This document shows, piece after piece, positions 36,637 through 38,899 of a stretch of DNA of 64,000 nt. Origin of the DNA: Bispira polyomma (taxonomy: Eukaryota); the NCBI GenBank assembly GCA_965649765.1, contig OZ287748.1, positions 91,574,001 through 91,638,000 of the forward strand, given 5' to 3'. Within the stretch, counting starts at the first letter, position 1, and each line of letters begins with the position of its first letter. The position numbers were made by a program, and so were the translations under genes. The notes below the pieces were generated by a model. That model did no database searches. It was given only the letters and a program-made list of their open reading frames with translations, and was not told the DNA's origin.

Positions 36637-38899
36637 TAAGCATGTATTTAACTTGTATCCTGGTTACCATATGTGGCATGTGTAAGGCATGTGTATTGTT
36701 AAAATAATGGACAAATAACAGACATGTCCGAGTTTAAAGGAAAAAAATGATATATGTAAAATTTGATGTGTTAGGTCCGTTTTCAACATGTGTGAAAAAA
36801 ACACATTAATTATTATATTTCTATCATGAATTATTTTCTATATCCTTCTATTAAAAAAAAAATCTGCAGCACCTATTTGAGTGGAATAGTCTCCCTACTA
36901 GTCACATTGCTACAAAGATGACAGGCTTTAGAAAAAAAAGCTCAAAACACATCTGTATTATTACATTTCAATCAGGAATAATTTTTCTATATTCTTCTAT
37001 TCAAAACAATAATTCTTTTTGCAAATAACAGTTTATGCACTTCTTATAATATTAACCATATGGTATTTAGCCTTGTTGAAGCTATGGTATCTTTTGGTTT
37101 AAGATTATTCACAGTTGCAAGGCTCCCAGGCTTCAGAAAAAACCTTCAAAACACATCTGTATTAACTCGCTTTTCTGTCTAGTCATGACTAAATTCTGAT
37201 CATGAACCTTTTCTCCTATCAGACATTTTTTTTACATACAGATTGGGATGTGCGACACAATGGATGCCTGGTCATCGATTGTGGAGCTTTAGAAGTAATA
37301 ACATTAACATTAAATAAATACCTAATTTTAAACATCAAAAAAACAATGTTACCTTTGCTTAGGAGGCTATGTGTTTGCTCAAGTGGTGGTGGGGGTAGTG
37401 GTGGGGGGAGAGGTAGTCATATTCTCCGTTTAGGGTCTCCAGGATTACACACTAATCTGTCAAACAGAGTTGCATGAAATATAATGGATATGTCAATGAC
37501 CCAGGGAGAATCCAATAAATTTTGCAGTGGATTGAATTGCTGTTGTTTTTAACATTGTGTGAAGTTTGGGCAGAGGTATTCACTCTACTGAGTGCCCTTT
37601 TAGGGCCTGGTAACAAATAATATGGAAAGGGTTTATTATGTGCTGCTTTTCCTGTCGGCCTATTGTTTAATGGGACACTTACCAGTTCAATATTTTAGTA
37701 ATCACCCCCCCCCCCCACACACACACACACACACTATAATAACTGTAACACCACGCCAGACTATGCATATTTTAAAATACCAGCTGTATGCTAAGACAAG
37801 GTCAACAACAACATAAACAGCTAAATAGATATAGATTTGTCTGTATTTTAGCTGGCACTGTGTAGATCTAGGGTAAAGTTTGAGGATGTAAATAGTGGTG
37901 ATTACAATTACACAAAATCCGGTTGAAGAAAAGGAATTGTAAGAACTGCTCACTCAAAAGTTAAAAAAATAAGGTTTTTAAGTGTTAATTAAAGACAAGA
38001 GTGTATTTATTTTATTATTAAGCCATGCTTACCGGAGATCTTCTTTTATACTTAACTTTTTATGGAGGCAAAAAATTACTAATTTAACCAAACAAGATTC
38101 AAGCTAAATGTATAAATCCTACATAATTGAAATAAAGAGAAAAATAACCCTCACTAAAAAAATAATTTTCGGTCGTGCATTGTAGGCACAACTACAGTTC
38201 AAGTCAAAACCTTGATCCGATCTCCAAAAAAGGAAATTTAAAACTCAAGTGTAGTGTTACAATTAATTTAAGTAATACTAGCCGGCCCATGTGAGCTTTA
38301 GTGATCACAATGTAATATGCCCATGTGTACTGCATGGAATATTTCAAAGAGGAAACATTATTGAGTTTTGATTTGTGTTGTATATATCAAGTTTCCTACA
38401 CACATGTAAATATGATAGTGATATGTCATGTAACAACTTTTGTTTCACTGCTAACATCACACTCAGTATACTGCATACTTCTGCCAAGTGGAACGGAATT
38501 TACAGGATCTCCACTTTTACTAGTGATGTTCCGAGTCGAGTGATACTCGAGTCAGTACTCGTTAGGCGATAATTGAAACATACATCAGGTCTTGCAATTA
38601 ATCACTCATGGTGCACACATGTAAATCAAAAACATTTTAATACAACTTCCAACTCCCTAAAATTATGAAGATCACATTTTAACTCTTTTACAGCAGACAT
38701 GGAGTAACAGCTAAAACCAACGGTATTGGCCTTCTTTTTGTCAGACAACATTAAACCAGAATAAGTTTTTAACATAACATTTATAACCTCTAAAAATCCT
38801 TAATGCTAATTTTATGACATTATTAAATACAACAAATGTCTTACTTACTGGATAAGTCTCCACACTGACTTATTGTGAATGTTTTAATGTCACAACCCC

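What the first reader, a model, noticed from the sequence alone, without database searches (positions are those of the whole stretch)
36800..37180. 225-bp perfect copy of unit B sequence patched into unit A by an apparent template switch
Seen: 36956-37180 is 100% identical, without indels, to 48948-49172, while the flanks are only about 80% identical. Unit A also keeps its own diverged version of the segment just upstream (36800-36960, ending CAAAACACATCTGTATTA), and the switch falls at a TATTA microhomology. Inference: recent repair copied an LRR-derived cassette from the paralog 12 kb away, so sequence still moves between dead TLRs. This is loosely analogous to pseudogene-donor conversion in chicken Ig or cassette copying in lamprey VLR, but no functional recipient is visible here.
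Basis: partly seen in the sequence, partly recalled or inferred. Interest (0 to 1): 0.72.

Follow-up and report, generated by a model that had tools for sequence, protein, structure and literature searches.

The report
DNA-repair patch copied from neighbouring duplicate
A 204-base piece of non-coding DNA sits as an extra, exact copy in one of two old neighbouring duplicates, likely pasted in when a chromosome break was repaired from the other duplicate; this is an ordinary, known kind of repair scar, and no trace of the immune-receptor genes suggested earlier was found.

Summary
Observation confirmed: 36956-37180 equals 48948-49172 over 225 bp, between tandem duplicates otherwise 86% alike. 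Contigs built from the raw reads of three runs carry the tract as one piece at about twice the depth of its left neighbour, with no differences from the window, so it is not an assembly or polishing chimera. Net change: 204 bp inserted into unit A, right end in register with B, left end joined at TATTA. This is the known signature of one-sided homologous repair ended by microhomology joining. The immune reading fails: 61 TLR proteins of this genome, a frameshift-tolerant scan and Pfam found nothing above controls. The tract is unique non-coding DNA plus the decayed 3' end of a LINE retrotransposon; its unique part occurs nowhere else, so no intact TLR shares it. A second exact run (120 bp, 40860/54790) lies in a block conserved in three units. 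The scan noted the same mechanism once before in a fungal genome (e1-9920754). Ordinary repair scar; interest low.

The parts
36956..37180 (+). Tract identical to unit B 48948-49172 (225 bp)
   Evidence: present in read-derived contigs at about double depth
36961..37164 (+). Net 204-bp insertion in unit A (B-derived)
   Evidence: removing it leaves a sequence colinear with B and with the dispersed LINE family
36956..36960 (+). TATTA microhomology at the out-of-register (left) joint
   Evidence: 0.8% of 40,000 random joins between these regions show 5 or more shared bases
37165..37180 (+). In-register right end, 16 bp, running on into about 83% A-B homology
36810..36960 (+). Unit A's own older version of the segment; 36865-36960 is a piece of the LINE 3' end that B has partly deleted
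36961..37115 (+). Part of the tract without a significant match to the repeat family (a weak 25-bp LINE match begins near 37094); 36985-37115 occurs only in A and B
37116..37315 (+). Decayed 3' end of a dispersed LINE family: ORF C-terminus, about 150 bp of 3' UTR and an AACATT tail (CR1/L2 label recalled)
48948..49172 (+). Donor copy in unit B, colinear with A on both sides
49138..49172 (+). 35-bp exact match between B and A with the insertion removed: likely pairing site
26950..45326 (+). Tandem unit A (non-coding as far as tested)
46098..59677 (+). Tandem unit B
60477..64000 (+). Partial tandem unit C (runs on to about 65520); lacks the tract region
40860..40979 (+). Second exact A-B run, 120 bp, in register with 54790-54909, inside a block 93-94% alike in A, B and C

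Best explanation
Unit A carries a recent 204-bp insertion copied exactly from its tandem duplicate B, likely made when a double-strand break in A was repaired by one-sided homologous invasion of B and closed by microhomology-mediated end joining. Shown: the exact copy, its presence in read-derived contigs, an in-register right end, an out-of-register left end at TATTA, retention of A's own segment, and the non-coding, partly LINE-derived content. Inferred steps: (1) a break fell at 36956-36960, inside a decayed LINE end where A and B share 35 exact bases; (2) the right-hand end invaded B instead of the sister chromatid and was extended leftwards for about 205 bases, through sequence that A had lost; (3) the new strand was released and, the left end being too little resected to anneal at the 19-bp homology, was joined at terminal TATTA (polymerase theta-type joining inferred from other animals); (4) the result looks like a tandem duplication whose second copy is the paralog's. 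No function is implied.
For: Exact 225-bp match against 85.8% background, P about 1e-12. Contigs from 3 of 3 runs hold the left joint and the tract with 0 differences, tract depth about double. B is colinear with A on both sides of its copy while A has both versions, so B is the donor. A without the insert matches B for 35 exact bases at the site. A 5-bp microhomology arises in 0.8% of random joins. Zero differences in 225 bp puts divergence under 1.3% against 14% for the duplication, so the event is young. The outcome matches published models: extended end joined to the other end by TMEJ (PMC7368036, passages); non-canonical termination of gene conversion by microhomology (PMC5104497, abstract and passages).
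Against: Sequence alone cannot tell this route from an out-and-back replication template switch or from an older tandem duplication later converted in register; all give the same product. No unpatched allele was seen, so the pre-event state is reconstructed, and the 16 right-hand bases may or may not have been converted. The junction contigs overlap the tract by 30 letters, one short of the tool's bridging rule, and depth in X3 is uneven. The runs may be of the individual that was assembled. Invasion of an 83-86% identical template is normally disfavoured (PMC7407515, passage).
Confidence: 0.6

Rival explanations
1. Replication template switch out and back (FoSTeS/MMBIR type): a fork stalled in A after CTGTATTA, primed on B at TATTA, copied about 205-220 bases and returned to A at the shared 35-bp stretch.
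For: Same product; microhomology at the first joint and homology at the second.
Against: The stalled 3' end had a 19-bp exact match in B at 49138-49156 but would have had to prime at a 5-bp match 204 bp upstream; under one-sided invasion that distance needs no coincidence.
Confidence: 0.17
2. Two steps: an older tandem duplication of about 150 bp in A, then ordinary in-register gene conversion of the second copy from B, stopping where homology ends.
For: Small tandem duplications exist in this window (26852-27030, 32511-32737, 53736-53976); a second, in-register exact run of 120 bp exists between A and B.
Against: Needs two events at one spot, and conversion across about 115 bp of non-homology anchored by about 50 bp of 83% identity on the left.
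Confidence: 0.13
3. Assembly or polishing chimera.
For: Perfect identity; junction contigs fall one letter short of the bridging rule; the runs may be the source of the assembly.
Against: Contigs assembled from raw reads hold the joint sequence with 0 differences at single-copy depth and the tract at double depth in 3 of 3 runs; a polishing error would not be in the reads.
Confidence: 0.03
4. Pseudogene-donor diversification of Toll-like receptors: an LRR cassette moving among dead TLRs and on to live ones.
For: The genome has many TIR-domain genes (104 matches), and exact runs exist between real TLR neighbours on C6. A very old, heavily decayed TLR origin of the units cannot be excluded: degraded positive controls fell to near background at 25% substitutions.
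Against: No TIR match in or within 100 kb of the window; 61 TLR proteins score 25.4 on the units against 25.7 on the reversed control; Pfam finds no LRR or TIR; the tract is LINE-derived plus unique DNA with two copies in the genome.
Confidence: 0.02

Closest known systems
Non-canonical termination of gene conversion / SDSA ended by microhomology-mediated end joining (Hartlerode et al. 2016, PMC5104497; abstract and passages read)
   Same: One end copies from a homologous template; the released strand is joined to the second end at a microhomology.
   Different: There an induced break, sister-chromatid template and kilobase tracts in mammalian cells; here a natural 204-bp event from an 83-86% identical paralog, in an invertebrate-type genome.
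Tandem duplications by extension plus polymerase theta joining (Kamp et al. 2020, PMC7368036; passages read)
   Same: Head-to-tail product with microhomology at the joint; limited resection of the receiving end.
   Different: Template is the sister, so copies are identical and mostly 10-20 kb; here the paralog template marks which copy is new. Enzyme dependence not tested here.
Duplication-dependent strand annealing (Fiston-Lavier et al. 2007; not read, seen as described in passages of PMC3276153 and PMC3420103)
   Same: Break inside a repeated sequence repaired from an ectopic copy of the repeat, duplicating the DNA next to it.
   Different: Much smaller; donor is the neighbouring tandem unit, not a dispersed copy; no re-invasion traces.
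Templated insertions into homeologous sites in C. elegans rip-1 mutants (PMC8078821; passages read)
   Same: 200-4000 bp insertions copied between homeologous sites on one chromosome.
   Different: Those came with deletions of several hundred bases at the acceptor and arose in a repair mutant; here nothing is deleted.
Chicken Ig pseudogene conversion and lamprey VLR cassette copying (recalled, no call)
   Same: Short one-way copy from a nearby related sequence.
   Different: No receptor gene, no cassette library, no functional recipient, no sign of somatic programming.

Membership tests
One-sided ectopic gene conversion ended by microhomology joining | Tract identical to a donor against diverged flanks | tested here: met
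   225 of 225 against 85.8%
One-sided ectopic gene conversion ended by microhomology joining | One end in homologous register | tested here: met
   right end 37180/49172 runs on at about 83%
One-sided ectopic gene conversion ended by microhomology joining | Other end out of register, with microhomology or added bases | tested here: met
   TATTA, 0.8% by chance
One-sided ectopic gene conversion ended by microhomology joining | Donor unchanged (non-reciprocal) | tested here: met
   B colinear with A on both sides and does not hold A's version
One-sided ectopic gene conversion ended by microhomology joining | Pre-event allele with one copy only | tested here: inconclusive
   no second version of the left flank among the contigs shown; contigs show presence, not absence
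One-sided ectopic gene conversion ended by microhomology joining | Dependence on RAD51 and polymerase theta | not testable with these tools
   needs genetics
TLR pseudogene cluster | TIR domain remnant | tested here: not met
   sensitivity falls for very old decay
TLR pseudogene cluster | LRR remnants in the units or the tract | tested here: not met
TLR pseudogene cluster | DNA similarity to an intact TLR | tested here: not met
   genome searches return only local units and dispersed repeats among the 40 candidates scored each; 30 TLR coding sequences give one 35-bp hit outside the units
Ig/VLR-type donor conversion | Tract shared with a functional receptor gene | tested here: not met
   36985-37115 has 2 matches in the genome, A and B
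Ig/VLR-type donor conversion | Somatic, immune-cell-specific variation | not testable with these tools
   no tissue-resolved reads; the same contigs stand in both samples
LINE (CR1/L2-type) 3' end, for part of the tract | Dispersed copies that align with the C-terminus of a reverse-transcriptase ORF | tested here: met
   copies on many contigs align with ORF 30205-31035; that ORF hits RVT_1 weakly, below cut-off, and a related flanking ORF strongly, E 1.6e-34
LINE (CR1/L2-type) 3' end, for part of the tract | 3' UTR ending in a short tandem repeat, variable 5' truncation | tested here: met
   AACATT tail and ragged 5' ends in 20 aligned copies
LINE (CR1/L2-type) 3' end, for part of the tract | Clade placement by RT phylogeny | not tested
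   the CR1/L2 label is recalled from the C-terminal motif

The most novel reading that the evidence does not exclude
This 12-kb tandem pair is a local hot spot where DNA is still copied between 14%-diverged duplicates: two of the four long exact runs with diverged flanks in 664 kb lie in this one pair, and the second sits in a 190-bp block kept 94-96% alike in three units. That block would be a functional non-coding element held uniform by repeated conversion, and natural alleles with and without the patch would let one measure homeologous repair in an invertebrate germ line.
Probability: 0.08. Interest if true: 0.5.

Novelty: new member of a known kind. Interest (0 to 1): 0.2.

Why it matters
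It is a clean natural record of a repair outcome mostly described from reporter assays and repair mutants: because the template was a diverged paralog, donor, recipient, direction of synthesis and joint can all be read off. It shows that homeologous templates at about 85% identity are used now and then.

Tried and rejected
TLR or LRR origin: tblastn of 30 TLR proteins on the window gave nothing under E 0.1 and nothing at E 0.01 on 264 kb; protein HMM best E 0.055 outside the tract, DNA HMM no better than the reversed control; frameshift-tolerant profile at most 21 bits in the units against 19-34 in controls, with degraded TLRs at A-B-like decay scoring 28-245 (9 of 10 over 50) and at heavier decay 25-53; 61 proteins (30 partial, 31 longer, some the same gene; drawn from 104 TIR matches) no better than the control. 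Pfam: 0 families on 38601-45502, one match at E 0.09 below cut-off on 36601-37502; unit B and 26950-36600 were not scanned with Pfam. Coding signal in gaps: 52 of 222 are multiples of three. Rfam: 0 matches in the window. Conserved block as a structured RNA: z -0.5 to -0.8. Source of the tract's unique part elsewhere: none. No RNA holder listed. Joints that skip the tract have 23-26 letters on the short side and lie in the dispersed repeat; I read them as other copies of the family, and 114 rows were not shown. One paper (PMC85044) was not held. No earlier notes near this place. Paper searches were for mechanism; I make no claim that such natural cases are absent from print.

Full report
Observation. 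Window 36956-37180 equals 48948-49172 over 225 bases and cannot be extended. The two sites lie in tandem units A (about 26950-45326) and B (about 46098-59677); a partial unit C starts at 60477 and lacks this region. Outside the tract A and B match at 85.8% of 8,956 aligned columns with 222 gaps; a 225-base run has a chance of about 1e-12, and the next runs are 120, 42 and 36 bases.

Is it real? Three runs of one study, at most two samples, hold the stretch. Their contigs break as a two-copy exact repeat should: 36614-36985 at depth 13.4/11.3/95.6, 36956-37175 at 27.8/25.3/198.7, and 37151-37672 at 12.4/11.3, all without a differing letter. The left contig runs unbroken through the TATTA joint in 3 of 3 runs; the right end is crossed in 2 of 3 among the pieces listed. 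Limits: both junction contigs reach 30 letters into the tract, one short of the tool's bridging rule; depth in X3 is uneven (tract 2.1 times the left contig, 3-4 times the right-hand ones); the runs may be of the assembled individual. The bin 36710-36810 has the depth of its single contig, so no second version of the left flank shows, but contigs do not prove absence. The few other letters near 38033 and 38338-38391 (depth 15.7/13.9/62.6) are B's letters at the three places I compared by eye.

Anatomy. A holds its own version of the segment (about 36810-36960) and then B's. The net insertion is 36961-37164, 204 bp; TATTA (36956-36960) is shared at the left joint; 37165-37180 is in register and runs on at about 83% identity. 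With the insertion removed, A matches B exactly for 35 bases from 49138. B is colinear with A on both sides of its copy, so B is the donor and nothing moved the other way. Five or more shared bases occur in 0.8% of 40,000 random joins between these regions. No difference in 225 bases bounds divergence at 1.3% against 14% for the duplication, so the event is younger than about a tenth of the duplication's age.

What the DNA is. 36865-36960 and 37116-37315 match consecutive parts of one dispersed repeat found on many contigs. In 20 aligned copies it has ragged 5' ends, a 3' UTR and an AACATT tail, and its reading frame aligns with the C-terminus of the reverse-transcriptase-type ORF at 30205-31035. 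It is a LINE 3' end; the CR1/L2 label is recalled. A and B lost different pieces of this old insertion, so the patch gave A back about 115 bases that it had likely deleted. 36961-37115 scores no better than shuffles against 18 family copies, and 36985-37115 has two matches in the genome, A and B.

Are the units dead TLRs? The genome has 104 TIR matches, none in the window or the 100 kb on either side. tblastn, protein and DNA profiles, a frameshift-tolerant scan and Pfam found nothing above controls; 61 TLR proteins scored 25.4 on average on the units and 25.7 on the reversed sequence. Positive controls, which were members of the profile and so favourable, were found at A-B-like decay (9 of 10 over 50 bits) and were mostly lost at 25% substitutions, so a very old TLR origin is not excluded, only unsupported. 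Genome searches with 38600-41600 and 41600-45400 return the local units and dispersed repeats only, 40 candidates scored each.

Mechanism. Most likely (0.6) a break at 36956-36960; the right end invaded B at the shared LINE remnant, copied leftwards about 205 bases, and was joined to the unresected left end at TATTA. These steps are inferred. The product matches the model in which an extended end is joined to the other end by polymerase theta (PMC7368036, passages) and non-canonical termination of gene conversion (PMC5104497, abstract and passages; I was led to it by note e1-9920754). A break in a repeat repaired from an ectopic copy is the DDSA model (described in passages of PMC3276153 and PMC3420103; original not read). 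Homeologous templated insertions of 200-4000 bp were seen in C. elegans rip-1 mutants (PMC8078821, passages). The term one-sided invasion appears in PMC9299229 (passages). Rivals: fork template switch (0.17), which must pass over a 19-bp exact match to use a 5-bp one; older tandem duplication plus in-register conversion (0.13); artefact (0.03); immune donor system (0.02).

How unusual? In 664 kb around the window, 4 of 31 exact runs of 100 bp or more have homologous flanks at 90% or less; two are this A-B pair (225 and 120 bp) and two join sites 169 and 279 kb apart with flanks at 87-89%. In 200 kb of five real TLR clusters 1 of 24 passes. So such tracts are locally uncommon, and not special to TLRs; 0.86 Mb of 1,035 Mb is a small, non-random sample. 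The 120-bp run lies in a block 93-94% alike in all three pairs of units, against mostly 65-85% for A-C elsewhere, with three copies in the genome, no fold signal and no Rfam match; constraint explains it as well as conversion.

Verdict. Real, well-formed, and of a known kind: a repair scar in non-coding DNA. New member of a known kind; interest 0.2.

Noticed in passing
window 40825-41015, 54761-54943, 60507-60697: A 190-bp block 94-96% alike in the three tandem units, holding a 120-bp exact A-B run; three copies in the genome, no RNA fold or Rfam match. Conserved element or repeated conversion.
   Followed up: partly
window 26852-27030, 32511-32737, 53736-53976: Three small head-to-tail duplications of 90-120 bp, 91%, 92% and 81-84% alike; the first and third are single in the paralog and look like ordinary local duplications.
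   Followed up: partly
window 35989-36640: A very high-copy element of about 650 bp inserted in unit A just left of the tract, absent from B; its ends look like inverted repeats.
   Followed up: no
window 952-9698 and 10016-18509: A second, older tandem duplication (70-80% alike) at the start of the window.
   Followed up: no
window 12224-16829; L072-L073 (15.6-22.3 kb beyond the window): Retrotransposons that look DIRS-like (label recalled from the ORFs); the one beyond the window has exact 458-bp and 245-bp repeats at its ends, so it is young.
   Followed up: no
G000:C6:75255597/75262573 and C6:75216716/75225850: Exact runs of 567 bp and 100 bp between neighbouring real TLR genes with flanks at 90-95% and 76-88%: possible conversion among TLRs elsewhere in the genome.
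   Followed up: partly
L067, about 35-36 kb before the window, minus strand: A 439-codon open frame that reads like a single-exon seven-transmembrane receptor (by eye), the nearest gene-like frame found on that side.
   Followed up: no
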